Positions 1-64,000 of a stretch of DNA of 64,000 nucleotides are shown piece by piece. The translations under genes were made by a program, and so were the position numbers. The stretch comes from Candidatus Omnitrophota bacterium (lineage in GTDB: Bacteria > Omnitrophota > Gorgyraeia > Gygaellales > Profunditerraquicolaceae). Under the pieces are notes generated by a model that saw only the letters and a program-made list of their open reading frames with translations, searched no databases and was not told the DNA's origin. The DNA lies in contig JAQURX010000002.1 of the NCBI GenBank assembly GCA_028715415.1, positions 4,703-68,702 of the forward strand, in the 5' to 3' direction. Position 1 is the first letter of the stretch. Each line of letters starts with the position of its first letter.

Positions 1-48
1 AACCGGAGAAACAAAAATAGAGATATATGAAGGCAAGGTAGACTAAAT

Positions 49-924
49 ATGGATATGCCAAAACTCCCAATTGATAAAAAGTACCTCCCGATGATTATAG
101 CGGCTGTCGCCGGTTTAGTCGCGGTGTATCTAATTAATATTTATATCCAGCAGACAGCAGATGAAACCAGAAAGAGAGAGCAGGAGAGGAGAAAAGAACT
201 GGCAACTGTTGTCATTGCAAAGCAAGATATTGCTTCGGGGACTGCTATTAAAGACACTATGGTTAAAGAAGAAATAATCAGTAAGTCTCTGATTCAGCCT
301 CGCGCCGCAAGTTCCTTGGATAGGGTTGTGGATAGAATTACAATTGCTCCTATATCTAAAGGTGAGCAAGTGCTTCTTAATAAAGTTACTCTTTCGGGAG
401 AAGCAGTTTCGTTATCGACAAAAATTCCCCGGGGAAAAAGAGCGATTACAATTCCAGTAGATAATATTTCTTCTGTTGGAGGGATGATCAGGCCGGGAGA
501 CCATGTAGATGTAGTCAGTATGATACCAATCCCGGGGATAGGCCAGGATGGAAAACCCAGTAACCAAATGAATACTACGCCGCTTTTTCAGGATGTTTTG
601 GTTTTAGCTGTTGGGCAAGAATATGCAGCAGTCCCCGGCGGGCAAAAAGGAGAAAAAAGGCAAACTCCAATTATTACTCTGGCATTAGCGCCTCAGGAAG
701 CGAATCTTATCGCATTTATTCAGGAACAAGGCAGAATTCGTTTAATCCTTCGTTCTCCCGGAGACAGCGGATCTGAAAGAATTGCTCCTGCTAATTGGGA
801 ATCTGTATTAAGAATGACTATACCGGAAATGTTTGAAAGAGGAGAAGAGGCGCCGGCTCCAAAGCCTCGTAAAACGGTTGAAATATACCGCGGTTTGCAA
901 AAAGAAGTAAAACCTTTGGATTAG
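49..924 (+). CDS. cpaB: Flp pilus assembly protein CpaB/RcpC (N-terminal TM anchor plus SAF-like domain)
   Basis: ORF track 291 aa. N-terminal hydrophobic segment IIAAVAGLVAVYLI is followed by a stretch typical of CpaB (VVIAKQDIASGTAI...GEQVLLNKV). It sits first in a Tad operon, directly before the secretin. Confidence 0.75.
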   Translation: MDMPKLPIDKKYLPMIIAAVAGLVAVYLINIYIQQTADETRKREQERRKELATVVIAKQDIASGTAIKDTMVKEEIISKSLIQPRAASSLDRVVDRITIAPISKGEQVLLNKVTLSGEAVSLSTKIPRGKRAITIPVDNISSVGGMIRPGDHVDVVSMIPIPGIGQDGKPSNQMNTTPLFQDVLVLAVGQEYAAVPGGQKGEKRQTPIITLALAPQEANLIAFIQEQGRIRLILRSPGDSGSERIAPANWESVLRMTIPEMFERGEEAPAPKPRKTVEIYRGLQKEVKPLD

Positions 925-940
925 AAGAAAAGGATAGATA

Positions 941-2602
941 ATGACGAGAAAATATAAGATTCTCTGTAGCTTAATTTTGTTTTCATCTTTTTTATTGGCA
1001 CACAAACCAGTTTTAATTACTGCGGAGAATGAAGAAACAATCCGTATGATAGTCGGAGAGTCAAAAGTTTTTCCTACATTATCGCCTACCCGAGTAGTTA
1101 TAGGAAATCCTAAGGTTGCAGACATTGTGGATGTCACGAATACCGAGATTTCCGTAAATGCAAAATTATCAGGAGTCACTACTTTGGTTTATTGGGATAA
1201 TTATGGCGAACAATCAATGAAAATCAGAGTTGTCCCCGAAGACACTATAGAGTTAAAGCGAAGAGTAGACAGTTTAATTTCCGGTTTAGGATTAGATGAG
1301 GTGAAAACCAATATTGCCGATGATGAGGGCAAGATTTTAATTATGGGCCGGGTAAAAAACCCGCAAGACAGAGAAAGAATTGGAGTTGCGCTTGGAGCAT
1401 TAAAAGATAAGACAATTGACCTTATTGAGGTAAAAGAAGAACAGGCAGTAGTTGAAATTGACGTGCAGATATTAGAGCTTGATAAAGACGGGACTACTTC
1501 ATTAGGGTTTAGCTGGCCCGGGCAATTCTGGATTAATGAAGTTGCTTCTCCGGGTATTGCTACTACAGGAGTTACTTCAATTGTTCAAGGAGCTTCTCCT
1601 TCCACAAGTTTCTCGGTTACAAATGCCGGAACAAAACTTTCAAATTTGTATAAAGTTGTAAATTATAGCCGTAATGCTTTTGGCGTCAAGTTAGATGCGT
1701 TGATTCAAGAAGGAAAAGCAAGGATTCTTTCCCGCCCGCGTTTGGCCTGCCAGAGTGGGAAAGAAGCAGAGTTGTTGGTAGGAGGAGAAAAGCCGATATT
1801 TAGCACAACACTTGCTGCTACAACAGGAAATTCAGGAACTCAGGTAGAATACAAGGAGTACGGAATTAAGCTAAATATTAAGCCAACCGTAGGTGCTGAT
1901 GAAAAAATCAAATTAAATTTAAAGGTTGACGTAAGCGAGTTGCAGGAAGCTGAAACCATAGGGACTACGACTTCAATTACGGCAAAGGCATATCCGCTTA
2001 CTAAGCGTTCCACGTCTACAGAGCTTTTTCTTGAAGATGAGCAGACCTTAGCTATCGGAGGTTTGATAAAGCAGAAAACCTCCGAGGATTTACGTAAATT
2101 CCCTTGGCTTGCTGATATCCCCGTTTTAGGATCATTTTTTAGACAAAAAATTACGACTACTGGTGGTGGAAGCGGCGAGAAAGGGGATACAGAATTATTT
2201 ATTACGCTTACTCCGAAAATTGTTAGTAGGGAATCGGATAGTAAAAAAAATAAGAAAGAGCCAGAACCCCGGGATTTTGTTAAGCCTTCTTTGCCCGTGA
2301 ATACATCTTCCTCACCAATTAGTAACTATGCTTCTTTAATTCAAAAGCGAATTACTGATAATTTGGAGTTTCCTGCAGCAGCCAAGAAAAGCGGTTTTGA
2401 GGGGACAGTGAAATTAAGTTTGCATCTTTCGTATCAGGGGGATCTTTTGGATACAGTGGTTAAGAAAACTTCCGGATACAAAATATTAGATGAAAGCGCG
2501 GTAAAGACAGCCCGGGGCATCGGAAGTTATCCTCCGTTTCCTCCCGCAATAACATCTCAGGATATTTGGATAGACGTACCAATAGCCTATCGGCTTGATT
2601 AA
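941..2602 (+). CDS. cpaC: CpaC/RcpA-type secretin with a C-terminal TonB-C-like domain
   Basis: 553 aa with a signal peptide (LILFSSFLLA). The secretin core reads RPRLACQSGKEAELLVGGEKPI...FPWLADIPVLGSFFRQ...ELFITLTPKIV. The last ~100 aa (GFEGTVKLSLHLSYQGDLLDTVVKKTSGYKILDESAVKTARGIGSYPPFPP) resemble the TonB C-terminal fold. Confidence 0.8.
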   Translation: MTRKYKILCSLILFSSFLLAHKPVLITAENEETIRMIVGESKVFPTLSPTRVVIGNPKVADIVDVTNTEISVNAKLSGVTTLVYWDNYGEQSMKIRVVPEDTIELKRRVDSLISGLGLDEVKTNIADDEGKILIMGRVKNPQDRERIGVALGALKDKTIDLIEVKEEQAVVEIDVQILELDKDGTTSLGFSWPGQFWINEVASPGIATTGVTSIVQGASPSTSFSVTNAGTKLSNLYKVVNYSRNAFGVKLDALIQEGKARILSRPRLACQSGKEAELLVGGEKPIFSTTLAATTGNSGTQVEYKEYGIKLNIKPTVGADEKIKLNLKVDVSELQEAETIGTTTSITAKAYPLTKRSTSTELFLEDEQTLAIGGLIKQKTSEDLRKFPWLADIPVLGSFFRQKITTTGGGSGEKGDTELFITLTPKIVSRESDSKKNKKEPEPRDFVKPSLPVNTSSSPISNYASLIQKRITDNLEFPAAAKKSGFEGTVKLSLHLSYQGDLLDTVVKKTSGYKILDESAVKTARGIGSYPPFPPAITSQDIWIDVPIAYRLD

Positions 2603-2605: not shown

Positions 2606-4759
2606 ATGTCCAAAACAATTTCAATATTCAGCACAAAAGGCGGCGTTGGGAAGACTTTTGTCTCAATGAATTTGGCTGTAAGCCTTGGGTACTATTCCAA
2701 GAAAAAAGTCGCCCTTATTGACCTTGATCTTCAAGCAGTAGGGGATATGTCGCGGCTACTTAATGTTCAAAGCCGCAAATCTTTATTGGACCTTGCCGAA
2801 AATATAAAGAAAAATCCCGAAGCTGTATCATTGAAGGATTATATGGTAAAAATTCCCAATTTCGGGGTTGATTTTTTACCGGCAGTCTTAAACCCGCGGC
2901 AGGCTGTGCATCTGGATAGCGATAGAATTAAATGCGTCCTTGATTATTTGGATAAGAATTATGATTTCATTCTTATTGATGCAGGGCGGGCTTTTACGGA
3001 AAGTTTGTTTTCTACTTTTAATTATACCAATTTAATCCTCTTAGTTGTAACTCCCGACGTAATTTCAGTTTATCAAACAAAATGGTCACTTGATTCTTTA
3101 CAGTCTTTGCATATCCCTCTTAATATGATAAAGATTGTTTTAAACCGCGCTGAGAGCGCAGGCAGCGTCAGTTGGCAGGAAGTGCGCGCCGCGATACCCG
3201 TTGAAATAATTGGGAGAATCCCTTCAGAGGGAAAAACTGTTGGCCTTGCATTAAACCGCGCAACCCCGGTTGTTATAGATTCTCCTCGTTCAAAAGTAGC
3301 CCTTGCCATAAGAAAACTTGAGAAAGACCTTATTGAAAAACCAAATCTTTTCCTTGAACGTCAAGAAATAGCAGTTGCCGCTGGAGAAGAAGTTGTATTG
3401 CCTAAGGAAGGTGAGTTTTGGCAGAGGTTTAATCTAGCGAAGGATGCGCTTGTTGAAACCGATACTCAAGAAGAAGATGAGATTATTGAGTTAAAGAAAC
3501 GAATCCATTCAAAATTAATTGAAAAACTGGATTTAAAACATATTGAAATTGACATGACTGATCCGGTTAAAGCGCGCCAGATAAGGGATAAAACCGAAGG
3601 GCATATCTCTACTGCTCTAGCAGAAGAGACCGGTGTATTTCTCTCATCATTTGAAATAAGAAAAAGATTAGTTAAAGAGATTGCTGATGAGGCTCTTGGT
3701 TTGGGGCCTTTGGAAGACCTCGCAAATGACCCGGACATATCAGATATTATGGTTAATAATAAAAACCAGATTTATATTGAACGAGGCGGGAAAATTAAAT
3801 TATCTCCCAAAAGATTCCTTTCAAATGAACAGGTGCGCCAGGTTATTGAGAGGATTATTGCTCCATTGGGCCGCAGGATCGATGAGTCAGTCCCAATGGT
3901 GGATGCGCGCCTTCCTGATGGCTCGCGCGTAAATGCAATTATTCCTCCGCTTGCTTTATCCGGCCCGACTCTTACGATTAGAAAATTTGGAAGAGAGCGT
4001 CTTACTATTGACGATTTGCTTCGTATAAATACTTTAACCGAACCAATGCGCGATTTTATTGCCGGCTGCGTTTTATCAAGAAAAAATATTATTGTTTCGG
4101 GAGGAACCGGTTCAGGAAAAACAACCGTTTTAAATGTGCTCTCTACGTTTATCCCGGAGAATGAGCGAATTATTACAATTGAAGATGCTGCCGAATTAAA
4201 ATTAAAACAGGAGCATTGCGTGCGCCTTGAGTCACGCCCACCTAATATTGAAGGAAAGGGAGCAATTACAATTCGCGATCTTTTCCGTAACTCTTTAAGA
4301 ATGCGGCCTGATAGAATCATTATCGGAGAATGCCGAGGGGCTGAATCATTGGATATGCTGCAGGCGATGAATACAGGCCACGATGGTTCATTAACTACAA
4401 TCCATGCAAATTCTACACAGGATGTTTTAGTCCGCCTTGACTCCATGATTTTAATGTCTGGTGTTGAGTTGCCTATCAGGGCGATTAGAGAAATGATTGC
4501 CTCCGCAATTGATATCGTAATTCACACTGCCCGTTTGTCCGACGGAACCCGGAAAGTTATACAGATTACGGAAATTACAGGCATGAAAGACGATATTCAT
4601 ATAGGTTTAGAAGATATCTTTGTCTTTAAGCAAACCGGCATTGATGCGCAGAATAATGTTGTCGGTCAATTTAAAGCCACTGGTTACATCCCTGCATTTA
4701 TTGAAGAACTTAAGATTAAAGGGATACCAATCCCCGCTGATATATTTAAATCATCTTAA
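2606..4759 (+). CDS. Fused CpaE/TadZ (ParA/MinD-like ATPase) and CpaF/TadA (T2SS-E family secretion ATPase) in one polypeptide
   Basis: 717 aa. The N-terminal half has a deviant Walker A (STKGGVGKTFVSMNLAVSLG) and a MinD/ParA-like layout. The C-terminal half has VSGGTGSGKTT Walker A, RPDRIIIGECRGAE and GHDGSLTTIHANS motifs typical of TadA/CpaF. Confidence 0.85.
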   Translation: MSKTISIFSTKGGVGKTFVSMNLAVSLGYYSKKKVALIDLDLQAVGDMSRLLNVQSRKSLLDLAENIKKNPEAVSLKDYMVKIPNFGVDFLPAVLNPRQAVHLDSDRIKCVLDYLDKNYDFILIDAGRAFTESLFSTFNYTNLILLVVTPDVISVYQTKWSLDSLQSLHIPLNMIKIVLNRAESAGSVSWQEVRAAIPVEIIGRIPSEGKTVGLALNRATPVVIDSPRSKVALAIRKLEKDLIEKPNLFLERQEIAVAAGEEVVLPKEGEFWQRFNLAKDALVETDTQEEDEIIELKKRIHSKLIEKLDLKHIEIDMTDPVKARQIRDKTEGHISTALAEETGVFLSSFEIRKRLVKEIADEALGLGPLEDLANDPDISDIMVNNKNQIYIERGGKIKLSPKRFLSNEQVRQVIERIIAPLGRRIDESVPMVDARLPDGSRVNAIIPPLALSGPTLTIRKFGRERLTIDDLLRINTLTEPMRDFIAGCVLSRKNIIVSGGTGSGKTTVLNVLSTFIPENERIITIEDAAELKLKQEHCVRLESRPPNIEGKGAITIRDLFRNSLRMRPDRIIIGECRGAESLDMLQAMNTGHDGSLTTIHANSTQDVLVRLDSMILMSGVELPIRAIREMIASAIDIVIHTARLSDGTRKVIQITEITGMKDDIHIGLEDIFVFKQTGIDAQNNVVGQFKATGYIPAFIEELKIKGIPIPADIFKSS

Positions 4760-4792: not shown

Positions 4793-5134
4793 ATGCAAAT
4801 AATCAATAAAACTACAAATATAAGTTTGGCCAACGAAGTTATTATAGCGCAATCTTTTTTTAAAAAAGCAAAGGGGCTTTTGGGAGTTAAAGAGTTTAAA
4901 GAAGGACATGCACTTATTATTAAGCCATGTAATTCAATCCATACTTTTTTTATGCAAATTTCAATTGATGTTATATTTGTTGATGCAGCAAATATAGTAG
5001 TTAAATGTATCCCAAATCTTCCGCCATTTCGCTTAAGCCCAATTTATTTTGAAGCAAGCTACGTGATTGAATTACCCGCCGGAACAATCAATAAAACCCA
5101 AGTTAAAACAGGTGATTGCCTTTTAATATCATAG
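4793..5134 (+). CDS. DUF192 family protein
   Basis: 113 aa. The pattern ...KKAKGLLGVKEFKEGHALIIKPCNSIHTFFMQISIDVIFVDAANIVV...IELPAGTI matches the conserved DUF192/COG1430 core. Confidence 0.65.
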   Translation: MQIINKTTNISLANEVIIAQSFFKKAKGLLGVKEFKEGHALIIKPCNSIHTFFMQISIDVIFVDAANIVVKCIPNLPPFRLSPIYFEASYVIELPAGTINKTQVKTGDCLLIS

Positions 5135-5172: not shown

Positions 5173-5250
5173 ATGTCCAATCAGAGTTCTTGACAATGTC
5201 CAATCTATTTGGTACACTTTAATTGCTATATAAAAATGTCCAAACTGGAG
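5173..5250 (+). promoter_or_regulatory. Cluster of three direct repeats ATGTCCAA(T/A)C overlapping the promoter; candidate operator
   Basis: Exact ATGTCCAATC at 5173-5182 and 5196-5205; ATGTCCAAACTGGAG at 5236-5250. The first two copies are 23 nt apart. The same motif recurs three times at 16493-16555. Confidence 0.5.
5190..5218 (+). promoter_or_regulatory. sigma70-type promoter TTGACA-N17-TACACT for the HTH/PE-rich gene
   Basis: TTGACA lies at 5190-5195, a 17-nt spacer at 5196-5212, and TACACT at 5213-5218. The spacer itself contains one ATGTCCAATC repeat. Confidence 0.5.
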
Positions 5251-5264
5251 TGCTTGAGGTAGGT

Positions 5265-7244
5265 ATGGGTGTAATTTATAAATTAAGGCCGGAAATTAAG
5301 GATTTTATTGTTGAGAAGAAGAAGATTAATCCAATTATTAGTTGTCGTGGCCTTACTGAGCTTATTGAATCTGAATTTAAAATTAAATTATCAAAGTCTA
5401 CTATTAATGCAATAATTAAAGATGCTGGCTTAAGTATGCCGATTGGAAGGAGGCTTAAGAAGCACAAGCATCATCCCAAGGAGCAGATTGTTGAATCAAA
5501 AGAACCGCCTCTAGAATCACCTTCAAAAGAGTTGGTTCCCGTCGAGAAAAAGCCGGAGCAAATAGCTCAGCCAATCAGTATTCCTAAAATTGAAGAACCT
5601 GTTGAAGAAATAAAACCGCCGCAAGAAGCCCCTGAAACACCAATAATTCTCCCAGAAGAAAAACCAATTGAAGAAAAGAAAGAGGAATTGCCAGAGGTTC
5701 AAATAGAAAAGCCAGAGGAGCCGGTTATTGTTGAAAAGCAAGAAGAACTGATTCCTCCTCCAGAGCCTATTTTGGCTAAAGAAGAATTAGCTCAACCTGT
5801 TGCTCCAGAAGAAGTTATTGAAAAAGAACCAGAAAAAGAAGAAATTAGTGAGCCTGTAGTAGAAAAAGTTGTCGAGCCTGCAATATTACCTGTTGCAAGA
5901 GAAGAAGTTAAGAAAAATGAATCTTATGAGGAATTAGTCTCAACTGGAGCGGTTCTTTTAAAAGCTGCTGATTTTATTATTGGTGGAAGCAGTATAATTT
6001 CTGATGCGATCAGGAGTAGAATTATGTCTCTTGATGCCGCTCTTTTAGCTAAGACTGAGAGTGCAATTTATTTGCCTCTATTCCAAGGAGTAGCTGGTGG
6101 GCAGGAAGATGATTTGGAGAAATTATGGTCTTTAGTTGGACGAAATGTCACTTTAGATGCAATTTTGACATATCTTGATGATTTGCAGAAGGTTAAGCCA
6201 GTTAATACTGATATAATCCGTATTATTGACACCTCGGCGCAGGAAGTGAGGTGTATTAAGCTAGATCTTTCTAACGGAAGTATCTTGTATTTGGATGGGC
6301 AGTTTCAAACAGTGTGGTCAACACCGCATATACCGCATAGTTTTAACCTAACTGTAAATAATGTAAAGGGTTACATCAATAATTATTTCTTTGAAGAAAA
6401 GCCGTTAATCCTCGGTATGGCCCCGGGTTATGATTCTCCAACTGATGAATTTTTTAATTTTGCTTTAAGTCTTGATTCAAGAGAAAGAAAAATACGTTCA
6501 CTTTCTCTGATTGCGGATAATCTTGAAGAAATTGAAGTAATCCCAGTTGAAACAGCCCGAAGAAGGTTTTTTATTTTTGGCTTATGGCCGTGGCAATTTA
6601 CTCAGAGCCGGAAAGTAAGTTTATCCGGGGAATTTAAACCGTATCAATCCAATGTTTGCAAAAAAGAGTTATTTATAGCTTCCCTCGGGATTATTTTATC
6701 GCAAGTATCTGGAGATAAATCACTTACATTAAGAGGCTATGCAATAAAAACAAATCTTAACGAGAAAACCAGGTTGGTAATTTTAAGTAATCTTCCCATA
6801 GATACTAGCCCGGATTTATTGATTGAGCCGTATCTTGGCCGTTGGCCGAACTTTGAAGAGGCTTTTAAGGATTTTAGCCGAAAAGTTGAATTATTTACTT
6901 ATACCGCGAATTCGCAGAAATATTTTTCCTCAGCTTCTGCAGATTTATTTACTGTGGCAAACATTGATATCAAAACGATTTTCAACCAGTATCTGAAACT
7001 TTTGGATATGTTCGTAAAATATCATTTTCTACCTCCCGGGTCTGAAGATACAGATTTCTCGTCGATGAAAGAGCAGTTTTATAGCCTTAAAACCACATTT
7101 AAGAAAGAAAAGGGCTGTGTTTTTATCAAATTTCTTACCCCCGAAGGATATGCTTCGCAAAAGCTGCTTTCTTACGCCTGCAACAGACTGAACGAAAGAG
7201 AGATTATTTTCTTTAACGGCCTGCGCGCCTGGTTTTCGCTTTAG
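5265..7244 (+). CDS. Protein with an N-terminal helix-turn-helix-like domain, a ~200-aa Pro/Glu/Val/Lys-rich linker and a ~430-aa C-terminal domain of unknown function
   Basis: The ORF track starts at a TTG at 5223. ATG at 5265 with GAGGTAGG upstream is the more likely start. The N-terminus (RGLTELIESEFKIKLSKSTINAIIKDAGL) looks like a transposase- or regulator-type HTH. The PEVK-like low-complexity region spans ~5480-5900. Confidence 0.6.
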   Translation: MGVIYKLRPEIKDFIVEKKKINPIISCRGLTELIESEFKIKLSKSTINAIIKDAGLSMPIGRRLKKHKHHPKEQIVESKEPPLESPSKELVPVEKKPEQIAQPISIPKIEEPVEEIKPPQEAPETPIILPEEKPIEEKKEELPEVQIEKPEEPVIVEKQEELIPPPEPILAKEELAQPVAPEEVIEKEPEKEEISEPVVEKVVEPAILPVAREEVKKNESYEELVSTGAVLLKAADFIIGGSSIISDAIRSRIMSLDAALLAKTESAIYLPLFQGVAGGQEDDLEKLWSLVGRNVTLDAILTYLDDLQKVKPVNTDIIRIIDTSAQEVRCIKLDLSNGSILYLDGQFQTVWSTPHIPHSFNLTVNNVKGYINNYFFEEKPLILGMAPGYDSPTDEFFNFALSLDSRERKIRSLSLIADNLEEIEVIPVETARRRFFIFGLWPWQFTQSRKVSLSGEFKPYQSNVCKKELFIASLGIILSQVSGDKSLTLRGYAIKTNLNEKTRLVILSNLPIDTSPDLLIEPYLGRWPNFEEAFKDFSRKVELFTYTANSQKYFSSASADLFTVANIDIKTIFNQYLKLLDMFVKYHFLPPGSEDTDFSSMKEQFYSLKTTFKKEKGCVFIKFLTPEGYASQKLLSYACNRLNEREIIFFNGLRAWFSL

Positions 7245-7274
7245 AAAACGCTTTCTTTATACTCCCAAATATCA

Positions 7275-7303
7275 TTGACACTGTATTATATTAATGTTAT
7301 ATT
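7275..7303 (+). promoter_or_regulatory. sigma70-type promoter TTGACA-N17-TATATT (extended -10 TGt) for the Flp pilin operon
   Basis: TTGACA at 7275-7280, a 17-nt spacer, then TATATT at 7298-7303 with TG at 7295-7296. It lies ~230 nt upstream of the first pilin gene. Confidence 0.55.
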
Positions 7304-7311: not shown

Positions 7312-7445
7312 AATTGAAAGGCGGCAACGAAAAGGCAATTCCACTATGGAGGTAGTGGATGCGCAAAGCCACGGTGAGTATGCTCGCAAAATATTGTTTT
7401 TATATTTCTAGCTTTGGGTCAGAGCGAGAAACTTTTACCGGGTTA
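7312..7445 (+). promoter_or_regulatory. Candidate c-di-GMP-I (GEMM)-like riboswitch aptamer in the pilin operon leader
   Basis: GGCAATTCCACTATGGAGGTAGTGGATGCGCAAAGCCACGG ... GAGCGAGAAACTTTTACCGGGTTACCGAAAGCC shares the GGCAAAC/hairpin/GGACGCAAAGCC and CGGGGTTACCGA signature blocks of the Vc2 c-di-GMP aptamer. It also matches the second element at 16925. It has a longer insertion than typical. Confidence 0.4.
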
Positions 7446-7478
7446 CCGAAAGCCGTCAATGGCTTTCGGTTTTTTATT
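7446..7478 (+). terminator. Intrinsic terminator/attenuator hairpin plus U-tract (expression platform of the leader element)
   Basis: Stem CCGAAAGCC (7446-7454), loop GTCAAT, stem GGCTTTCGG (7461-7469), then TTTTTTATT. The 5' arm overlaps the aptamer 3' stem GGGTTACCGAAAG. Confidence 0.6.
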
Positions 7479-7534: not shown

Positions 7535-7723
7535 ATGTTAAGTTTAAGAGGGAAAAAAGCTCAGAGTACATTAGAGTATATCTTGGTTCTTACGGCTATT
7601 GTTGCAGCAATCGTGGTTGTTTCACAGGGGGTAATAAAAGAAAAGGTTATAAGTATGTTCGGCAATGTAGCTAATCAGGCTGATAAGGCAGTTTCAAAGA
7701 TTAATTTTGATAACGAAGAATAA
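7535..7723 (+). CDS. flp: Flp-family pilin (class III signal peptide, A-QSTLEY motif)
   Basis: 62 aa MLSLRGKKAQSTLEYILVLTAIVAAIVVVSQ. AGGAGGTGAG RBS. G/XXXXEY-type motif with Ala at -1. Confidence 0.75.
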   Translation: MLSLRGKKAQSTLEYILVLTAIVAAIVVVSQGVIKEKVISMFGNVANQADKAVSKINFDNEE

Positions 7724-7751
7724 ACAAAAATTTTTGAGGGAGGTGAAGAAA

Positions 7752-8108
7752 ATGTTGATCTATTTAAACAAAAAAGCGCAAAGCACAGCCGAGTATGTCA
7801 TTGTGTTGGGGTTGGTTGTAGGAGCTGTGGTTGCTATGCAAACATTTGTAAAAAGAGGCTTGCAAGGCAGAATCCATGACGCAGTAAAATATACCGGGGC
7901 TGCAGGCGATACAGATGCAAAAGCAATATTTAAAGGCAACCAGTATGACCCGAATTATGTTGAGAGCAATTTAACAAGATCAAGCTCTTCAGAAGAAAGT
8001 GAAAAAATTGCTACAGGCGGAGGAGAGATTACAAAAGAACTTACCAAGGAATCAAGCTCCACAACTGGTACGCAGACTATGGAAGCAGAAGATGGCAATA
8101 ACGATTAA
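7752..8108 (+). CDS. Flp-type pilin paralog with Ser/Thr/Glu-rich C-terminal tail
   Basis: MLIYLNKKAQSTAEYVIVLGLVVGAVVAM. RBS GAGGGAGGTGAAG before ATG 7752. The ORF track start at 7707 is an upstream in-frame extension. Confidence 0.7.
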   Translation: MLIYLNKKAQSTAEYVIVLGLVVGAVVAMQTFVKRGLQGRIHDAVKYTGAAGDTDAKAIFKGNQYDPNYVESNLTRSSSSEESEKIATGGGEITKELTKESSSTTGTQTMEAEDGNND

Positions 8109-8177
8109 AAGTATGTACTTAACCCCCAATTTTATCGGATAAATTGGGGCGGGCTTGTGCCCAGGGAGGTGGAATAA

Positions 8178-10484: not shown

Positions 10485-10503
10485 GAATTTGGAGGGAAAA
10501 GTT

Positions 10504-10668: not shown

Positions 10669-10675
10669 GGTAAAT

Positions 10676-11044: not shown

Positions 11045-11045
11045 T

Positions 11046-57000: not shown

Positions 57001-60000
57001 TAATTACATTTGAAAACGCAGTTACCAAGAAACAATTCAGGGCTACGTTTGATACAAAAGGTTATCTTATTAAAACAGTTGATTCTGATTCTAAAGAAAC
57101 AATTCTTTATGATTACGACGCAGAGATTGGTAAAGACGTGCCTTTAGAGGCGTATGATGCTAAGCGTACAGGCGTTGCATTATTTACAGCAAAGAAGGCG
57201 GAAAATAAAACATATGAAATTATCCGTACAAATCATGAGCCTATAAATTATGAGAAACAAGTTTCTATTCTTTACGCGGAAGACGGGTCAGAACTAGCAA
57301 AAACAATAGTTCTTTCAAATGGCGATGTGATAAAAAATGTTTATTTAAGAGATGCCACTAATATTAAGAGATTTATTGTTGCTTATAAGAATGGGCGCTT
57401 CTTTAAGATTTCCAGATTTGATTCTCAAGAGGCAAATGGTAATAGCCGTTATGAGGTAGTGGAAGCTAAAGAATTATGGTCTATACCCGCACAATTAGAA
57501 ACTGCAAATGGAGTTTTAAATGTTAATCAGGCAGAAACAATCTTTGCAGGGCTTAACCGTAAGAGTCCCGCAGCCACAACTTATGGGAATTACGATGCAA
57601 GGTTTGACAGAGAGATATCTAAGGTCATTGAAATGAAAGACAAAGACAATAAGGTTGATATTAAGAGAATTATAGAGTTTGTTTATAAGGGAAATTCAAA
57701 GATTCCTTCAATGACAATCTTAAGAGAAGATGTCCGTAATAATGAAGTCGTGAATAAGATTTGGTCTGTATCAGTAAGGGAAGATGGAACTGAGGCTGAA
57801 GTGCATCGTGAATTTTTGCAGCGCATGGGGATAACTGAAGAAAGCGCCATTGAAAAATTCTTTGCTGAATTAATAGAAGGCAAGAGAGGGCTGCCGGAAG
57901 TAGTAAGAATCCATACCCGTAATGTTCATGGCTGGGATACAGAAGTTAAATTCGGCGGAACAAGGCAATATTTTATCTATGATCAAGATGGCGTGTTAAA
58001 GGGCGGCATAAATACTGTAGCAGGGGAAATTGATACTTTGAGTTATGTTGATGATAAAGGCTTGATTCATCTTCTTGAGTTAAATAGTTTAGATAAAGAA
58101 ACAGCTGAAGGCATTCGTAAAGAATTTTCTGGCCTTCCAAAGCTAGTAAAGGAAAATCACAGCATTTTAAATGCCAATTTCAATATTGAAAGATTGCGCG
58201 AAGTTATCAATAAAAATGCCCTTCGTATTTTAGAGGCTGACTTCTTCGGAGATATAAGGAAAGAAGACGTTGGCGTCCGTAAGATAACCTACAAAACCGA
58301 TGTGCGCGTTGACCATAAGTTAGGTATTACTACTGTTAATGGAAAGTTAGTTGAGGCAAGCTTTAACATTGATAAAAACACTCCTTGGATTGTTTATCGC
58401 ATCAAGGCAAAGAATTTGTCCGCAGAAGAGGCTAAGCTTATTGAAGGGTTGCTTGCGAAAGGGTACATCTCTACAGAATCTAAGAGTGAACTTGATATAA
58501 AGAAGTTGGTTGATATCTTTAAATCCAGAGAAACCAAAGCCCGTGTTACTTTTATTGATATGTATCGCAACGAGGCTTTCTATATTGAAAAAGGCAAGCT
58601 TCAATTCCCCATAAGGGATCGCTTAGGCAGAATTTTACACACCTTAGCTTACGAGATTAAGAATAGCGGGAATGTTGTGGCTGAATTAAATAAACTTCTT
58701 GCTGCTTCTGGGTATGAATATAATCAGAAATTATACGATAGTGTTAATGCGCTTGGGTGGTTAAGCCCGGTTTCTTATACCTTAGAGCTTGGTTCGATTA
58801 CTCTTCCTGATGGAGCTAAAGCCCGCCTGATGCAAGTTCACGAATGGAAAGATAAGAAAAAAGCAATTGGCAGCGGTAAGCTCTTGCGCACCTTCGGCGT
58901 GGATATGTTTGGTGATGAAGTAGTAAAGATTAAATATTGGAATGATGCAAAGAAAGATATGCTGTTTATTGTGAGGGATAGTAAGGATATTAGTCATAGT
59001 ACCGCTTTTATAGGGGGCATTGATAGAGAGAATAGCATTGTTAAAGATCAAGTAATCTCTGTATCAAAAGAAGGGGTGTTCGCAGATATAGTAAATAATG
59101 AAATGAGAAGCCGCATACTCGGAGTGGAAAGATTTCTCAAAAGCCAAGGCTTTGCTACTGATATGGGGTTTGAAGGTTTGACTTGGGCTAAGATTACCAT
59201 GCTTGATAAAAATAATAGGCCTATTAGTGAGTCTATCCAGGCTTTTAAGGATAGCGAAGACCCAGTTGTAAAGATTGAAAAAGACTTGGCCGACTTTGTA
59301 TTTGTTTATGCAGGGAAAGAAATTAGTTTACGTTTTGATTTATCCGTAGCGTTTGACGAAAAAACTGCAAGCCCATCTGTTATTGCGAATGTTGAGAATA
59401 AATACAGTAGGCTGATTGTTGATCTATATAAACAGATGATCTTTAGGGATAGAGCAGATGATGATAATACTAAGATTACACGTGAACATTTACGTAAGAA
59501 TGGCTTATTTAACCATGATTGGAAATGGTTCTTGGAAAATATAGCAGAAATAGGTAAGAGGCCAATAGATCGAGAAGAAAAATTTGATTATCAGGAAGTC
59601 AAAGTTGGTAAAACAGTATTTTCTTCTTCTTTGCTGAAAGCTTTAGATGTTCCTTCACTGTCAGATACCTCTTATCAATTTGTTCATACTACTGATCCGG
59701 AGATACATACTCTGCATATAGGGCAAGGGCGGTTAGAGAATATAGATTGGGAAAATCATTTAATAGTTTCCCGAAACGAAATATTCTTTTATAACAATGA
59801 AAATGTTGATAGTAAGGATGTATTTTTTACAATCTACTATAAAGCATACCGAGATTTCTCTGGTAACATACCAATCCAAACATTTTACGCCGATAAAGAA
59901 TATAATGATCCTCGTTTTTCAAGCCATGTTTTTGATTTTGATCGTTATGGAATTGGGCGTCTTTCAGCTGTATTTGGCAAGGAAGAATCCGGAGCATGGG

Positions 60001-63000
60001 AGCCTCTTAGTGTTGGTAGATCGGTTAGACAGGGTATCTCTAATAATAGGTGGGAACCTTTAGTTGGCGGGGCAAGTGTTACTCCAGTTAAAATGCTGCT
60101 TAAAAATTTGGTTAACCAAGATACTAATGAAAACATCTTCTTTTTTGAAATTACTGATATTAACCGAACTATTGATATAGGATTTAATCCTTCAGATCCA
60201 GTTTCTACCTATAAGAATATTTATGCTAAATTTAATGAGCTTTTGGCGAAGGAATATATTAAGGAACGTTATATTATAGGTAAAACTGGTACAGGAAGAA
60301 TGGTTACTCGCTTGATAGATTTCAAACTTAATTCGGCTGGAGATATTATTAGCGATCCACGTTTGATTGTTTATTTTCTATATACTCCAGAAATCTTGAG
60401 CGCCACAGAAGCAGGCCCGCTTCACTTTGGATATTCTCGAGAAAGCTATATTTATCCATATAATAAACAAGAAGGCCTCGATGTTATGTCGTATGCAAAT
60501 AAAGAATGGAGTAACAGTAATTGGGTCGCACATATTTTTAATCGTCAGTTCGCTACCGACTTACAAACAAAAGAGATATTAATACATTATGATGTGCAAG
60601 ATCGTAGAGAAGGGTATACATTTATTGGCAAGGCTCTTTCAACCTATGGGATGCTTAAATATGATGAGTATTTAGGGCAGTCTGGGGAGCCCGAAACAAT
60701 GAGAATTTATTATGGCCTTCGTGAGATACCAACAAAAGCCGTTGGTTTTGATATGAAAGGGAATAACCCGGAATTATGGAGACAATACCGTAATAGCGTA
60801 GTGGATGAAAACGGGCATACCTATTTGATAGTTGATGAAATCGATCCTATTAGGAATGCTCATCCATATATGTATGCTGCAGAAAAATTTGTTTATCCTG
60901 AACTTAATTGGTTTGTTTTGCGGGATGGAATGTTCTTTGCTCGCGCCGATAAATGGAATTATTCTACGCAAAAATATAAAGCAACGCGTGATTTTTCTGA
61001 AGATGTATCAAATAGCGGATTGTTTAGGATTCTTGGTAATCAAAAAGCTGTCAAAGAATCAAAGAAAGTAATTGAAAAAGCGTTGAAAGAAAATAGATTT
61101 AATCCTGTTCCGGATGTTTCTCAAGATGAAATTAAGAACGCAATGGAAATGCGCAAAGCGCGTTCCATTGATGGTTATGTGCCAGTAATGTTAATTATCG
61201 CAGGAATTATTGGCTGGGTTGTTTTGGTATGGCAATTGTTGAAATTTGCTGTTTCTAAACCAAATATTAATTCTGCAAATAAGGAAGAGCTTGAAGGAGT
61301 TTTTTCTCCGCATGATGCAGGGAATATCCTTCTAGCCCGCAAAGAGCGCGTAGCAATTGGCAATGTAACAGAATTGCCAGAACTGCGCGATACTACAGTA
61401 GATAAAATAAGAAACAAGATTAGGTTTACTGAAACAGTAGGAGGGATTACTCTTGAAGAAATAAGTAGTCTTAATGATTTCAAATATGAGAATATAGAAG
61501 GTACAATTCTTTCTGATAGCGTGGAGTATGTTAACGATCTTATTGAGAAAGGTTTCATTTCTAAAGAAGAAGTCGAACAGATTGTACGCGAATTGGCTAA
61601 AGGGTTATCTGTTGGAGTGTTGCCATTGAGTTTGGTAAAGGCTAAATTACTAAGTAGAATCTTTAGGTGTGCTTACTGGGATGGTAGTTACCTTCTTAAA
61701 GATAGTGTGAGAAAAACTTTAACTAAAGCAATAAAAGACCTGTTTACAAGAATAGACATGCCAGTCTCTAAGGTTCTCCCAGATCAGTTTATCAATGAAA
61801 TTATCCAGGAAATATCTGTCCATCGTGTACCTGAGTATGTATATGATTGCGATACGGGTAAATATGAAGGTGGCAAGAAACTTTCTTTAGGCACTGGTTT
61901 GTGGGTGTTTGATCCCAAAGCAGATTATCAAGTTGTTTCTTTAGAGGACTTTGTAATTAAGTATAAGGTAATTTATACATTAGTGCCATTTTTTAGCACC
62001 CATACCCCGGCAGTAAATTGGTTTACTCGCCAGGTAAAAGAGATGCTTATTAATAAACAAGATAAGGATATAAAGGCTTTTATCAATAACCATCGGAAAT
62101 TTTGGTATCAAGCGTTAAAGGATCAGTTGGATAATAAGTGGGAACCTATGCGTGACGACCGCGGTAAAGGGCCTGCTTATGAGAATGAAAAGACCAGAGA
62201 GTGGAAATATTTAATGATTTGGTCTGAATTCAATGATTTATTCCGTTATTTGCTGGAAGTGGACGATTACAATAAGCCATTACCTTGCCTTAAAGATGGA
62301 ACATTCTTCGATCTTAAACAAAAGATAATGACCGATGTTTTTTCTAAGATTGCAGCTGGTGATACACAGTTTACAAATGATGAGCTGACCTCAGATTTTC
62401 TCCAGAAGATAGTGGATGTTTATTTCAAGCCATTTAATCTTTACGTAACCGGTAAATTAAGAATTCCTTATTATGATAGGAAAGTATACAAAGCCAATAA
62501 TACGGGTGATGTTAAGACCGGAATATGGGCAAAGATTAAGCCTTATATTCCGTTTGTAAGGAGATGGAGAAGCCCTGAACGAGGAGAGATCGGCCTTTGG
62601 GCCTTTGTATTATTTAAATTGTTAGGAGATAAAAGATTTTGGAGTAAGGATATCAAAGATAAAAATAGAAATGCCGGGAAAAAATCTAGTTTTGTATCGA
62701 GTATCCCTGTATTTATCCGTGTAGCAGGATATGCCACTATAGCTATTTTAGCTGCAGTTTACATTCCCGAATATCATCTTTTAGGATTCAATGTTCCATT
62801 CTGGTTTAATTCTGTGGCAGCAGTAGGTTTAATAATGACTATACGTTTATTCCTGAACGATACTACTTTAAAAGCCCGTCGCCAAGCGTTGATCTGGGGT
62901 GCAATTAGCTTAGTAACCGGCATGTTTATTACATATATCATAGGATACGTAGCAACGCATTGGATGTTTATGCCTATACCTTTTGAACTTAGTTTTTCAC

Positions 63001-64000: not shown

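What the first reader, a model, noticed from the sequence alone, without database searches (positions are those of the whole stretch)
1..64000. System-level hypothesis: Tad pilus plus c-di-GMP riboswitches plus giant multi-hydrolase membrane protein as one attachment-and-attack locus
Adhesion pili, second-messenger control and a giant envelope protein carrying proteases, peptidoglycan hydrolases, glycoside hydrolase, CBM-like, GT and redox modules are co-localised. All are on one strand, in an AT-rich genome with overlapping or coupled genes. This resembles what has been proposed for epibiotic or predatory ultra-small bacteria such as Omnitrophota, where Tad loci and giant genes co-occur. The two riboswitch-like leaders would give the locus a unified c-di-GMP-responsive switch.
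Basis: inference. Interest (0 to 1): 0.8.

Follow-up and report, generated by a model that had tools for sequence, protein, structure and literature searches.

The report
Riboswitch-gated pilus and giant-gene locus, Omnitrophota
This is an Omnitrophota locus, of a type already described, in which a Tad/Flp pilus gene cluster sits next to a giant (more than 15,300 aa) multi-hydrolase membrane protein gene; what I did not find in the papers I could search is that two c-di-GMP riboswitches, predicted to switch transcription on, head the pilin operon and the giant-gene operon, the second in about 90% of related loci.

Summary
Every supported gene is on the + strand and GC is 39%. A Tad/Flp cluster (49-16481) is followed by a giant ORF that starts at 18078 and is still open at the window end (at least 15,307 codons). 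The ORF carries C39, M50, SleB-like, M15, P-loop, glutaredoxin, a weak CBM-like hit and a GH-A glycosidase module. Catalytic motifs are present in the six I checked. No GT was found. One window protein is identical to a protein from an NCBI 'Candidatus Omnitrophica' MAG, and all 80 related loci are Omnitrophota-type. Tad next to a giant gene is already published (West-Roberts 2023; Seymour 2023).

Both riboswitch leaders are real c-di-GMP-I aptamers with the canonical G/A/C ligand residues. Aptamer B (16917-17006) precedes the giant operon in about 71 of 76 evaluable loci. Aptamer A (7324-7451) precedes Flp pilin arrays in a subset of lineages. In 79 of 81 leaders an intrinsic terminator overlaps the aptamer's 3' strand, which predicts ON switches. 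Both leaders also share a promoter layout and upstream boxes. No held paper mentions these riboswitches.

Verdict: a new member of a known kind, with an apparently unreported and testable regulatory layer. The attach-and-attack function is still inferred.

The parts
49..924 (+). CpaB/RcpC pilus assembly protein
   Evidence: Pfam RcpC 2.8e-28 and SAF
941..2602 (+). Secretin (CpaC/RcpA type) with a C-terminal TonB_C domain
   Evidence: Pfam Secretin 4.2e-40, T2SS-T3SS_pil_N 1e-11, TonB_C 1.4e-14
2606..4759 (+). Fusion of a TadZ-like ParA/MinD domain with the CpaF/TadA secretion ATPase
   Evidence: Pfam CbiA/AAA_31/ParA on aa 2-240 and T2SSE 3.5e-63 on aa 364-644
4793..5134 (+). DUF192 protein
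   Evidence: Pfam DUF192 8.8e-19
5173..5247 (+). Three direct copies of ATGTCCAATCTG around a promoter-like site (5190-5218)
   Evidence: The same motif is conserved in relatives
5223..7244 (+). Conserved 673-aa protein: N-terminal helix-turn-helix, disordered Pro/Glu-rich linker, C-terminal alpha/beta domain with a weak Tn5-transposase-like fold. Candidate locus regulator (inferred).
7244..7255 (+). Palindrome-like box GAAAACGCTTTC, ending 19 nt upstream of the -35 hexamer
7275..7303 (+). Sigma-70-type promoter TTGACA-17-TATATT with TG, conserved in relatives
   Evidence: 11 of 12 matches. Conserved after the 673-aa gene in relatives
7324..7451 (+). c-di-GMP-I aptamer A: a variant with an 8-nt P1a loop and a 63-nt insertion in the second stem
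   Evidence: Rfam RF01051 29.9 bits, gathering score 35. My model R1 34.2 bits, E 4e-5. 50 homologous aptamers in metagenome loci, 99.8% of cells paired in the 55-hit alignment that holds them (it also includes about five type-B hits), all six P1a pairs covary. G/A/C at the three ligand positions.
7445..7470 (+). Intrinsic terminator of leader A. Its 5' arm includes the last 7 nt of the aptamer.
   Evidence: dG -16.5, followed by a T-run
7535..8495 (+). Three Flp-type pilin genes (7535-7723, 7707-8108, 8178-8495)
   Evidence: KKAQSTLEY-type N-termini. Class_IIIsignal below cut-off. Homologues in 13-39 relatives.
8529..9380 (+). TadB platform protein
   Evidence: Pfam T2SSF 2.6e-19
9394..10287 (+). 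TadC platform protein
   Evidence: Pfam T2SSF 4e-14
10290..12912 (+). Six small or medium ORFs with pilin-like N-termini (minor pilins, TadE-like)
   Evidence: Class_IIIsignal and TadE below cut-off. Homologues in relatives.
12924..15071 (+). TadG-like protein
   Evidence: Pfam Tad (TadE/G-like) 1.2e-6
15059..16481 (+). 316-aa protein without a family hit, and a 162-aa Flp/Fap-like protein
   Evidence: Homologues in 23 and 34 relatives.
16492..16554 (+). Three direct copies of ATGTCCAATCTG, about 300 nt upstream of the giant-operon promoter
   Evidence: Found, with at most 1 mismatch, in 59 of 74 related leaders, peaking 250-400 nt upstream of the aptamer.
16826..16837 (+). Box GAAAGCGCTATC, ending 20 nt upstream of the -35 hexamer
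16858..16887 (+). Sigma-70-type promoter TTGACA-18-TATACT with TG
   Evidence: 11 of 12 matches
16917..17006 (+). c-di-GMP-I aptamer B, with a GNRA-type GUAA loop on P1a
   Evidence: Rfam RF03167 67.7 bits, above the gathering score of 59, and a second clan member also reached its own gathering score. R1 96 bits. Covariation over 83 sequences. Ligand positions G/A/C.
16991..17039 (+). Intrinsic terminator of leader B plus its U-run. Its 5' arm is the last 16 nt of the aptamer.
   Evidence: dG -20.9, U8
17080..18078 (+). Gly-rich 332-aa protein with an N-terminal hydrophobic segment (gly332). Its stop codon overlaps the giant's start codon.
18078..63998 (+). Giant ORF, N-terminal 15,307 codons, cut by the window end. 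One TM segment at about aa 33-55 and many between aa 5157 and 9903.
18642..18893 (+). C39 cysteine peptidase module (aa 189-272 by Pfam; Cys142 and His231 invariant, Asp247 nearly so)
32322..32780 (+). M50 site-2-protease-like intramembrane metalloprotease module (HEAGH, NLIPxxxxDG)
40638..40940 (+). SleB-type cell wall hydrolase module (Hydrolase_2)
41358..41534 (+). M15 peptidoglycan peptidase module (SQHVDGIAAD)
42945..43268 (+). P-loop NTPase/kinase-like module (GASGVGKT)
48030..48209 (+). Glutaredoxin module (CGMC)
51402..51590 (+). CIA30/CBM-like stretch (weak)
   Evidence: 22.3 bits, cut-off 24
52386..53000 (+). Clan GH-A TIM-barrel glycosidase module (GH2_C / GH158-like; NE... and ITEFG motifs)
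   Evidence: (GH158 1.1e-13)

Best explanation
The window comes from an Omnitrophota genome. It holds the phylum's characteristic pairing of a Tad/Flp (type IVc) pilus cluster with an adjacent 'archaeovorin-like' giant membrane protein gene.

Predicted transcription layout. Two of the transcription units have the same modular leader: a conserved GAAAGCGCTTTC-like box, about 20 nt of spacer, a TTGACA-17/18-TATAYT promoter, about 25 nt of spacer, a c-di-GMP-I aptamer, and an intrinsic terminator whose 5' arm is the aptamer's own 3' strand.

Predicted switch. Without ligand the terminator forms and transcription stops in the leader. With c-di-GMP bound, the aptamer holds that strand and RNA polymerase reads through, so these are ON switches.
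- Unit A then expresses the Flp pilins, TadB/C, the minor pilins and TadG.
- Unit B expresses a Gly-rich secreted or membrane protein and, translationally coupled to it, the giant protein.

The giant protein. It is anchored by an N-terminal TM helix followed by a C39 peptidase module that looks active. Further along it carries an M50 intramembrane protease, SleB-type and M15 peptidoglycan hydrolases, a GH-A glycosidase and a glutaredoxin.

Inferred biology. High c-di-GMP, the usual 'attach' signal, co-induces the adhesion pilus and a surface-displayed hydrolase array that attacks the envelope of the cell the bacterium is attached to.

Shown here: anatomy, taxonomy, conserved synteny, aptamer structure and ligand-contact residues, and the overlap between aptamer and terminator.

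Inferred: ligand binding, the ON direction, co-expression, surface display, and a role in predation or epibiosis.
For: Taxonomy. An identical protein occurs in an NCBI Omnitrophica MAG. The 80 loci found with the giant's N-terminus are all Omnitrophota-type.

Tad genes.

Giant ORF and modules.

Conserved synteny. 46 of 53 loci carry Tad homologues upstream on the same strand.

Aptamer B.
- It passes Rfam gathering in the window and in 6 of 7 relatives tested.
- A model built from 7 sequences finds it 120-315 nt upstream of the giant's N-terminus in 64 of 80 loci. In 7 more it heads an operon that contains the giant. 4 loci lack enough upstream sequence to judge.
- 98.8% of cells are paired, 10 of 18 pairs show compensatory changes, and 0 of 500 shuffles reach the observed values.
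- The ligand-contact positions are G in 74/82, A in 82/82 and C in 79/81 sequences.

Terminator. In 79 of 81 leaders a terminator (dG -8 or lower, followed by a U-run) overlaps the aptamer's 3' strand by at least 5 nt. The unconstrained MFE fold of the window leader is the terminator form. The terminator's 3' arm co-varies with the aptamer's Y position (Fisher p 4e-4).

Aptamer A. There are 50 homologues in metagenome loci. The 55-hit alignment that holds them shows strong covariation. 38 of 46 evaluable copies are followed by Flp pilin genes. Aptamers A and B occur 8.7-10.8 kb apart on one strand in L105, L133 and L143.

Shared promoter and box.

Literature.
- A Tad or T2SS-like cluster upstream of giant genes, PilZ genes downstream, and GGDEF domains inside many giants.
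- Giant-ORF peptides increased 3-fold in attached V. archaeovorus cells, and its Tad complex was expressed in co-culture.
Against: - No experiment or transcript data were available. The ON direction rests on folding logic alone.
- Aptamer A is below Rfam's gathering score, and its terminator overlaps the aptamer by only 7 nt in this window.
- CpaB, the secretin and CpaF lie outside both riboswitch-gated units, so the whole locus is not shown to be under one switch.
- Five related loci have the promoter but no aptamer. Many lineages lack aptamer A.
- About 90% of the giant protein has no recognisable domain. Its interior has no close homologue in 1.84 billion representative proteins and only patchy collinear similarity to relatives.
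- Topology is uncertain. A crude hydropathy scan places the glutaredoxin and the glycosidase on the same side of the membrane.
- SecA_DEAD, GT, methyltransferase and NUDIX domains, typical of published archaeovorins, were not found in the 15,307 aa available.
- No prepilin peptidase gene is present in the window.
Confidence: 0.7

Rival explanations
1. The Tad-like cluster is not mainly an adhesion pilus. It is a dedicated T2SS-like export or assembly machine for the giant protein or its processed fragments. On this reading the riboswitches co-induce a cargo and its exporter.
For: West-Roberts et al. describe the cluster as a secretion system of more than 10 subunits with gspD/E/F homology. The secretin carries an unusual TonB_C domain and the ATPase is fused to TadZ. 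The synteny with the giant gene is tight.
Against: The gene set is that of Tad: RcpC, T2SSF x2, CpaF, TadG-like and arrays of Flp-type pilins. Seymour et al. place TadB/C with the Tad systems of predators. A protein with dozens of TM segments is unlikely to pass through a secretin.
Confidence: 0.2
2. The locus serves non-predatory surface life, such as biofilm, aggregation or a cell 'coat'. The hydrolase modules remodel the cell's own envelope so that the giant protein and the pilus can be inserted.
For: c-di-GMP ON control of pili and adhesins is typical of ordinary biofilm formers (own knowledge). SleB and M15 modules also occur in autolysins. Most of the protein is unannotated.
Against: Omnitrophota are mostly ultra-small with host-dependent traits. 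Giant-ORF peptides rise in attached V. archaeovorus cells. The protein combines peptidoglycan hydrolases with a glycosidase and a carbohydrate-binding-like stretch.
Confidence: 0.2
3. The leaders respond to a different ligand, as the Rfam label 'c-di-GMP-I-GGC variant' might suggest, or they act as OFF switches.
For: Rfam's best-scoring model for aptamer B is the GGC variant. A few sequences deviate at the first ligand position. L013 and L049 have C there in aptamer A.
Against: The position that defines the GGC variant is A in 82 of 82 sequences, and the window differs from the GGC consensus at exactly that position. G and C are kept at the other two contact positions. Direct sharing of a strand between aptamer and terminator in 79 of 81 leaders is the layout of an ON switch.
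Confidence: 0.08
4. The giant ORF is an assembly artefact or a decayed, non-functional gene.
For: MAG assemblies can be chimeric. The interior has no close homologues.
Against: - 15,307 codons without a stop have a chance probability of about 10^-495.
- Amino-acid composition is normal.
- There are no long repeats and composition is even.
- Catalytic motifs are present in the six modules checked.
- Homologous ORFs are open for about 3,600 codons in 33 of 39 relatives.
- Collinear blocks are shared with L026 and L007.
- Giant genes have been verified by long reads and proteomics in the literature.
Confidence: 0.02

Closest known systems
Omnitrophota 'archaeovorin'-type giant genes with an upstream T2SS/T4P-like cluster (West-Roberts et al. 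2023, bioRxiv 10.1101/2023.11.21.568195; confirmed in bioRxiv 10.64898/2026.06.07.730766)
   Same: An N-terminal signal or TM segment followed by a C39 peptidase. Many TM segments. Peptidase and glycoside hydrolase modules. An upstream cluster with secretin, ATPase, platform proteins, rcpC and many class-III-signal small genes. [quoted passage not shown] A link to c-di-GMP through PilZ and GGDEF.
   Different: Those papers do not mention riboswitches. In the 15,307 aa available here, no SecA_DEAD, GT, methyltransferase or NUDIX domain was found. The total length and the downstream PilZ genes cannot be seen because the window ends inside the ORF.
Velamenicoccus archaeovorus LiM: Tad complex plus a 39,678-aa giant protein (as summarised in Seymour et al. 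2023, PMC10066038)
   Same: A Tad complex and a giant multi-TM ORF in one Omnitrophota genome. The Tad complex is expressed in co-culture, and giant-ORF peptides are enriched 3-fold in attached cells.
   Different: It is a different lineage: relatives' N-terminal modules are only about 47-59% identical to the window's. I could not check whether LiM carries the aptamers, because its sequence was not among the fetched loci.
c-di-GMP-I (GEMM-I) riboswitch, Rfam RF01051 / clan CL00126
   Same: Two-stem aptamer with G, A and C at the three ligand-contact positions. A GNRA loop on the first stem of aptamer B. A transcription terminator as expression platform. Association with pilus and adhesin genes, as for known c-di-GMP riboswitches upstream of adhesins and type IV pilins (own knowledge: B. 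thuringiensis Bc2/cap; C. difficile pilA1, which is class II).
   Different: Here it heads what is among the longest known bacterial ORFs, and it does so phylum-wide. Aptamer A is a variant with a non-GNRA 8-nt loop and a 60-70 nt insertion, and it falls below Rfam's gathering score. Rfam's best-scoring model for aptamer B is the GGC variant, although the defining G is absent.
Bdellovibrio-type predation control by c-di-GMP and Tad/type IV pili (own knowledge; the relatedness of Tad systems to those of BALOs is stated in PMC10066038)
   Same: A small predator that uses pili to attach to prey, with c-di-GMP governing the switch to attack. Omnitrophota TadB/C group with Bdellovibrionales homologues.
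   Different: No giant protein is involved in Bdellovibrio. Control there is mainly through protein receptors. Predation by this Omnitrophota lineage has not been demonstrated.

Membership tests
Tad/Flp (type IVc) pilus system | CpaF/TadA secretion ATPase | tested here: met
   T2SSE 3.5e-63, aa 364-644 of 2606-4759
Tad/Flp (type IVc) pilus system | Two T2SSF platform proteins, TadB and TadC | tested here: met
   8529-9380 and 9394-10287
Tad/Flp (type IVc) pilus system | Secretin RcpA/CpaC plus RcpC/CpaB | tested here: met
   941-2602 and 49-924
Tad/Flp (type IVc) pilus system | TadZ (ParA/MinD-like) localisation factor | tested here: met
   Present as the N-terminal domain fused to CpaF
Tad/Flp (type IVc) pilus system | Short Flp pilins with a G/XXXXEY processing motif | tested here: inconclusive
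   The motif can be read in at least ten ORFs. Pfam Class_IIIsignal and Flp_Fap hits are all below cut-off.
Tad/Flp (type IVc) pilus system | Dedicated prepilin peptidase (TadV/CpaA) | tested here: not met
   None of the 20 Tad-cluster ORFs scanned has an A24 peptidase hit. It may be encoded outside the window.
c-di-GMP-I riboswitch (aptamer B, 16917-17006) | Reaches the Rfam gathering score | tested here: met
   RF03167 67.7 bits against a cut-off of 59. A second clan member also reached its own cut-off.
c-di-GMP-I riboswitch (aptamer B, 16917-17006) | Both stems supported by covariation | tested here: met
   98.8% of cells paired, 10 pairs with compensatory changes, 0 of 500 shuffles
c-di-GMP-I riboswitch (aptamer B, 16917-17006) | Ligand-contact nucleotides G20, A47 and C92 (Vc2 numbering, from memory) | tested here: met
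   G 74/82, A 82/82, C 79/81. The window has G, A and C.
c-di-GMP-I riboswitch (aptamer B, 16917-17006) | Binds c-di-GMP and changes expression | not testable with these tools
   Needs in-line probing or ITC, and termination assays
c-di-GMP-I riboswitch (aptamer A, 7324-7451) | Reaches the Rfam gathering score | tested here: not met
   RF01051 29.9 bits against a cut-off of 35, E 0.071. A 63-nt insertion costs score.
c-di-GMP-I riboswitch (aptamer A, 7324-7451) | Conserved structure with covariation, ligand-contact nucleotides and an expression platform | tested here: met
   50 homologues. The 55-hit alignment that holds them is 99.8% paired and all six P1a pairs covary. The window has G, A and C. 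Terminator at 7445-7470.
Archaeovorin-type giant protein (West-Roberts 2023) | Gene longer than 90 kb (protein over 30,000 aa) | not testable with these tools
   The ORF is cut by the window end at 15,307 codons. The source contig is 196 kb but could not be fetched.
Archaeovorin-type giant protein (West-Roberts 2023) | C39 peptidase near the N-terminus, next to a signal or TM segment | tested here: met
   TM at about aa 33-55, C39 at aa 189-272, Cys142 and His231 invariant
Archaeovorin-type giant protein (West-Roberts 2023) | Numerous TM regions | tested here: met
   About 30 hydrophobic segments by a Kyte-Doolittle scan, which is crude
Archaeovorin-type giant protein (West-Roberts 2023) | Divergent SecA_DEAD domain | tested here: not met
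   No hit in Pfam, NCBIfam or PDB within the 15,307 aa available. It could lie downstream.
Archaeovorin-type giant protein (West-Roberts 2023) | Domain set of GT, methyltransferase, GH, peptidases and NUDIX | tested here: inconclusive
   GH and peptidases were found. GT, methyltransferase and NUDIX were not found in the part available (same calls).
Archaeovorin-type giant protein (West-Roberts 2023) | Preceded by a multi-subunit T2SS/T4P-like cluster | tested here: met

The most novel reading that the evidence does not exclude
Omnitrophota run a dedicated c-di-GMP-triggered regulon that spans the phylum. ON riboswitches gate transcription of the Flp pilins and of the giant genes, which are among the largest bacterial genes known. 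A second shared layer of control acts on top of this. It consists of the GAAAGCGCTTTC box at about -61 and clusters of ATGTCCAATCT direct repeats that bracket the pilin module. These sites may be read by the conserved helix-turn-helix protein encoded at 5223-7244, which may derive from a transposase. Together with the GGDEF domains inside many giants and the PilZ genes downstream of them (both from the literature), this would form a feed-forward 'contact, then commit' circuit for attacking prey.
Probability: 0.3. Interest if true: 0.7.

Novelty: new member of a known kind. Interest (0 to 1): 0.55.

Why it matters
Giant genes of Omnitrophota are an open puzzle. They cost a tiny cell an enormous amount to transcribe and translate, and nobody knows when or why they are expressed.

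A conserved c-di-GMP ON riboswitch directly in front of them, and in some lineages in front of the neighbouring pilin genes too, names a concrete signal. It also offers a small RNA that can be tested in vitro without cultivating the organism.

It links three observations already in the literature into one circuit: PilZ genes downstream of giants, GGDEF domains inside them, and higher giant-protein abundance in attached cells.

It also gives a cheap sequence marker (aptamer plus the conserved N-terminal C39 module) for finding the starts of giant genes in fragmented metagenomes.

Tried and rejected
1. Exact look-ups of window proteins. CpaF is on record only on a 5.4-kb Logan contig. gly332 and P0046 are not on record. 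The 196-kb source contig could therefore not be fetched, and the giant's 3' end and the downstream PilZ genes remain unseen.

2. Homologues of the giant's interior (aa 7400-8400). The word-indexed search found nothing. The exhaustive HMMER search of 1.84 billion representatives found only domain-level SleB, M15 and P-loop hits, with E no better than 7.5e-11. Collinearity with other giants could only be shown patchily, by tblastn against the fetched loci.

3. GT module. Not found with Pfam on 5000-aa and 1600-aa pieces down to E 0.5, with NCBIfam, or with PDB sequence searches.

4. 'GGC variant with another ligand'. Rejected because the defining position is A in every sequence. I could not read the paper that defined the variant, so the meaning of 'GGC' is from memory.

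6. Promoter-like sites as a whole are no more frequent than chance (51 found, 50.3 expected). Only the two top hits, conserved in relatives, are used.

7. No tRNA genes and no other Rfam family are present in the window.
Full report
**1. What is in the window**

The window is 39% GC. Every ORF with family support is on the + strand.

Positions 49-16481 hold a Tad/Flp pilus cluster:
- RcpC/CpaB, 49-924.
- A secretin with an added TonB_C domain, 941-2602.
- A TadZ-like ParA domain fused to the CpaF ATPase, 2606-4759.
- DUF192, 4793-5134.
- A conserved 673-aa protein, 5223-7244.
- Three Flp-type pilin genes, 7535-8495.
- TadB, 8529-9380, and TadC, 9394-10287.
- Six further ORFs with pilin-like N-termini, 10290-12912.
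- A TadG-like protein, 12924-15071.
- Two more ORFs, up to 16481.

The small ORFs carry the K/R-G/A-Q-S-T-L-E-Y motif. Their Pfam hits to Class_IIIsignal, TadE and Flp_Fap are all below cut-off. No prepilin peptidase was found. Adjacent genes are 1-33 nt apart or overlap.

From ATG 18078, which overlaps the stop codon of the preceding 332-aa gene, one reading frame stays open to the last base of the window. That is at least 15,307 codons. The chance of this in DNA of the same base composition is about 10^-495.

**2. The giant protein**

Amino-acid composition is ordinary. There is one hydrophobic segment at about aa 33-55 and about 30 more, mostly between aa 5157 and 9903.

Recognised modules, with catalytic motifs read from the sequence:
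- C39 peptidase, aa 189-272. Cys142 and His231 are invariant, and Asp247 nearly so, in an alignment with 21 homologues. Cys142 is the only cysteine in the first 5,174 residues.
- M50 site-2-type protease, aa 4749-4901, with HEAGH and NLIPxxxxDG.
- SleB-type Hydrolase_2, aa 7521-7621.
- M15 peptidase, aa 7761-7819, with SQHVDGIAAD.
- A P-loop module, aa 8290-8397.
- Glutaredoxin, aa 9985-10044, with CGMC.
- A weak CIA30/CBM-like stretch, aa 11109-11171.
- A clan GH-A TIM barrel, aa 11437-11641. The best solved relative is a GH158 enzyme, E 1.1e-13.

No GT, SecA_DEAD, methyltransferase, NUDIX or GGDEF module was found in this part. About 90% of the sequence has no annotation.

There are no long internal repeats. 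Composition is even along the ORF.

**3. Where it comes from**

The 673-aa protein is 100% identical to NCBI MDD5431567.1 (locus tag PHO70_01050). That protein comes from a 'Candidatus Omnitrophica bacterium' MAG and sits on a 196-kb contig.

The 45 database homologues of the giant's first 800 aa are almost all Omnitrophica/Omnitrophota proteins cut at contig ends; two are labelled otherwise by their sources.

A scan of one genome per GTDB species, using the N-terminal alignment, returned 80 loci. All are Omnitrophota-type; some carry an automatic 'Planctomycetales' label. Identity is 47-59% over the first roughly 290 aa.

Beyond that module, similarity is detectable in only a few loci, at 25-32% identity. 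In L026 and L007 it is collinear. The interior has no close relative among 1.84 billion representative proteins.

In 33 of 39 relatives with at least 3,000 codons of downstream sequence, the homologous ORF is open to the end of the fetched DNA.

**4. What is already known**

- West-Roberts et al. 2023 describe Omnitrophota giant genes with an N-terminal C39 domain, many TM segments, and peptidase and glycosidase domains. [quoted passage not shown] They are followed by PilZ genes, and many giants contain GGDEF domains.
- A 2026 preprint finds secretion or pilus genes flanking 13 of 14 giants.
- Seymour et al. 2023 report Tad complexes and ORFs longer than 20 kb across the phylum. They note that giant-ORF peptides rise 3-fold in attached V. 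archaeovorus cells.
- In my own set, 46 of 53 loci with at least 7 kb upstream of the giant carry homologues of this window's Tad genes on the same strand, and 41 carry TadB or TadC.

**5. The riboswitches**

*Aptamer B, 16917-17006*
- It passes Rfam's gathering score: 67.7 bits against the c-di-GMP-I-GGC model. Another member of the same clan also reached its own cut-off.
- Six of seven relatives tested with Rfam have the same hit 160-300 nt upstream of the giant's N-terminal match.
- A covariance model built from those seven sequences finds an aptamer 120-315 nt (median 190) upstream of the N-terminal match in 64 of 80 loci.
- In seven more loci it heads the operon, with an N-terminal extension or another ORF in between. 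Examples are a gly332 homologue in L013 and L034, as in this window, and a 2,378-aa ORF in L080.
- Four loci have too little upstream sequence to judge.
- Five loci keep the promoter but lack the aptamer.
- The total is therefore about 71 of 76 evaluable loci.
- The structure is well supported. 98.8% of cells are paired, 10 of 18 pairs show compensatory changes, and no shuffle or slid control comes near.

*Ligand specificity.* At the three positions that, from memory, contact the ligand in the Vc2 structure, the sequences have G (74/82), A (82/82) and C (79/81). The position that gives the 'GGC' variant its name is A in every sequence. In the Rfam alignment the window differs from the GGC consensus at exactly that base. 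These are therefore canonical c-di-GMP pockets, whatever the Rfam label says.

*Aptamer A, 7324-7451*
- It scores only 29.9 bits in Rfam (cut-off 35), because it carries a 63-nt insertion and a non-GNRA loop.
- My model finds it (E 4e-5), along with homologues in L013, L049 and L071, in each case between a conserved promoter and an array of Flp pilin genes.
- A metagenome scan with its 3' motif gave 80 listed loci, and 50 of them hold this aptamer. In the 55-hit alignment (which also includes about five type-B hits) 99.8% of cells are paired and all six pairs of the first stem covary.
- 38 of 46 evaluable copies are followed within about 150 nt by Flp-type pilin genes according to a strict pattern. 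More qualify by eye.
- Aptamers A and B lie 8.7-10.8 kb apart on one strand in L105, L133 and L143, as they do in this window.
- Many lineages lack aptamer A, so it is lineage-restricted.

**6. How the switches most likely work**

In 79 of 81 evaluable leaders a stable hairpin (dG -8 kcal/mol or lower, typically -15 to -30) followed by a U-run starts inside the aptamer's 3' strand. The overlap is usually 13-21 nt.

In this window the terminator of leader B is 16991-17031, followed by U8 (dG -20.9). It uses the last 16 nt of the aptamer. The unconstrained minimum-energy fold of the leader is the terminator form.

The terminator's 3' arm tracks the U/C variation in the aptamer strand. There are 49 of 56 pairs, in two Watson-Crick types (Fisher p 4e-4).

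An aptamer and a terminator that compete for one strand make an ON switch: bound c-di-GMP prevents termination.

Leader A's terminator (7445-7470, dG -16.5) shares 7 nt with the aptamer, including the third ligand-contact position. The ON call for A in this window is weaker for that reason.

All of this is inference from sequence. No binding or transcription data exist.

**7. Shared promoter layout**

The two best promoter-like sites on the + strand of the first 19 kb are TTGACA-17-TATATT at 7275-7303 and TTGACA-18-TATACT at 16858-16887. Both match 11 of 12 positions and have an extended -10 TG. Each lies 20-30 nt upstream of an aptamer. Promoter-like sites overall are not enriched, so only these two conserved ones carry weight.

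Each is preceded at the same distance (19-20 nt) by a palindrome-like box: GAAAACGCTTTC at 7244 and GAAAGCGCTATC at 16826. A match with at most 2 mismatches lies within 140 nt upstream of 81 of 128 related aptamers, mostly 75-95 nt upstream. The background rate is 0.017 per 140 nt.

Clusters of direct ATGTCCAATCT repeats sit at 5173-5247 and 16492-16554. In relatives, copies with at most 1 mismatch occur in 59 of 74 leaders. They peak 250-400 nt upstream of the aptamer, and 109 are forward against 6 reverse.

This supports common control of the two units. However, CpaB, the secretin and CpaF (49-5134) lie outside both units.

**8. The 673-aa protein**

It is conserved directly upstream of the pilin promoter in many loci. 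The AF2 model (pLDDT 74) shows an N-terminal three-helix HTH, a disordered Pro/Glu-rich linker and a C-terminal alpha/beta domain.

No complete DDE triad is invariant. It may be a domesticated transposase acting as a DNA-binding regulator of this locus. That is a lead only.

**9. Verdict**

The 'one locus' and 'Omnitrophota' parts were already published.

In the held literature I found no mention of c-di-GMP riboswitches in front of Omnitrophota giant genes or Tad pilins. That is the added value here. It is a known riboswitch class in a striking, conserved and testable new context.

Function in attachment and attack remains an inference from domain content and from work on V. archaeovorus.

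Noticed in passing
window 7244-7255 and 16826-16837; related loci L002-L161: A palindrome-like box GAAAGCGCTTTC ends 19-20 nt upstream of the -35 hexamer of both riboswitch promoters, centred at about -61. It occurs upstream of 81 of 128 related aptamers, and also in the five loci that have lost aptamer B. It is a candidate site for a shared activator.
   Followed up: partly
window 5173-5247 and 16492-16554; 61 of 201 fetched loci: Clusters of 2-3 direct repeats of ATGTCCAATCT(G), all in the same orientation, bracket the module that runs from the 673-aa gene through the pilin and Tad genes. One cluster sits at the 673-aa gene's own promoter. The other sits about 300 nt upstream of the giant-operon promoter. 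Their function is unknown; they could be an operator or a recombination site.
   Followed up: partly
window 5223-7244: A conserved 673-aa protein with an N-terminal helix-turn-helix, a disordered Pro/Glu-rich linker and a C-terminal domain that weakly resembles Tn5/IS4 transposases. No complete invariant DDE triad is present. It holds a fixed syntenic position directly upstream of the pilin promoter across Omnitrophota.
   Followed up: partly
window 17080-18078; L013, L034, L021, L041, L065, L074: The Gly-rich protein gly332 has a conserved A-(A/S)-G-G-G motif just after its hydrophobic N-terminus. It is translationally coupled to the giant ORF. Its homologues sit either before or after aptamer B, depending on lineage. 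It could be a substrate of the giant's C39 (double-glycine-type) peptidase, but that is speculation.
   Followed up: partly
window 16917-17006 and 82 related aptamers: Rfam's best-scoring model is the c-di-GMP-I-GGC variant, yet the position that defines that variant is A, not G, in every sequence. Annotation pipelines would mislabel these aptamers.
   Followed up: yes
L013:881-969, L049:267-409: In two type-A aptamers the first ligand-contact position is C instead of G. This might change ligand specificity in those lineages.
   Followed up: no
L014:1945-2410, L026:1781-2255, L032:570-1190; L062 and L076 upstream of the giant: Lineages without aptamer A keep a hairpin that resembles its first stem, and the GGAGG loop of that hairpin appears to serve as the Shine-Dalgarno sequence of the first pilin gene. 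Two loci without aptamer B keep a terminator-like remnant. These look like traces of riboswitch gain or loss.
   Followed up: no
L008:79-200, L063:1474-1581, L080:2553-2639, L045:7015-7110: Further c-di-GMP-I aptamers precede other large secreted-looking proteins (722 to 2,504 aa) that are encoded just upstream of giants. The riboswitch regulon in Omnitrophota is therefore wider than pilins and giants.
   Followed up: no
window 941-2602 and 2606-4759: There are two unusual fusions in the Tad machinery: a secretin with a C-terminal TonB_C domain, and TadZ fused to the CpaF ATPase in one polypeptide.
   Followed up: no
window 19032-19713 and 38080-38723: Degenerate in-frame repeats inside the giant ORF: Pro/Thr/Tyr-rich units (such as YTPTTQPSYTP) right after the C39 module, and roughly 80-100-aa Glu/Val/Pro-rich units near aa 6670-6880. 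They look like linker or stalk regions.
   Followed up: no
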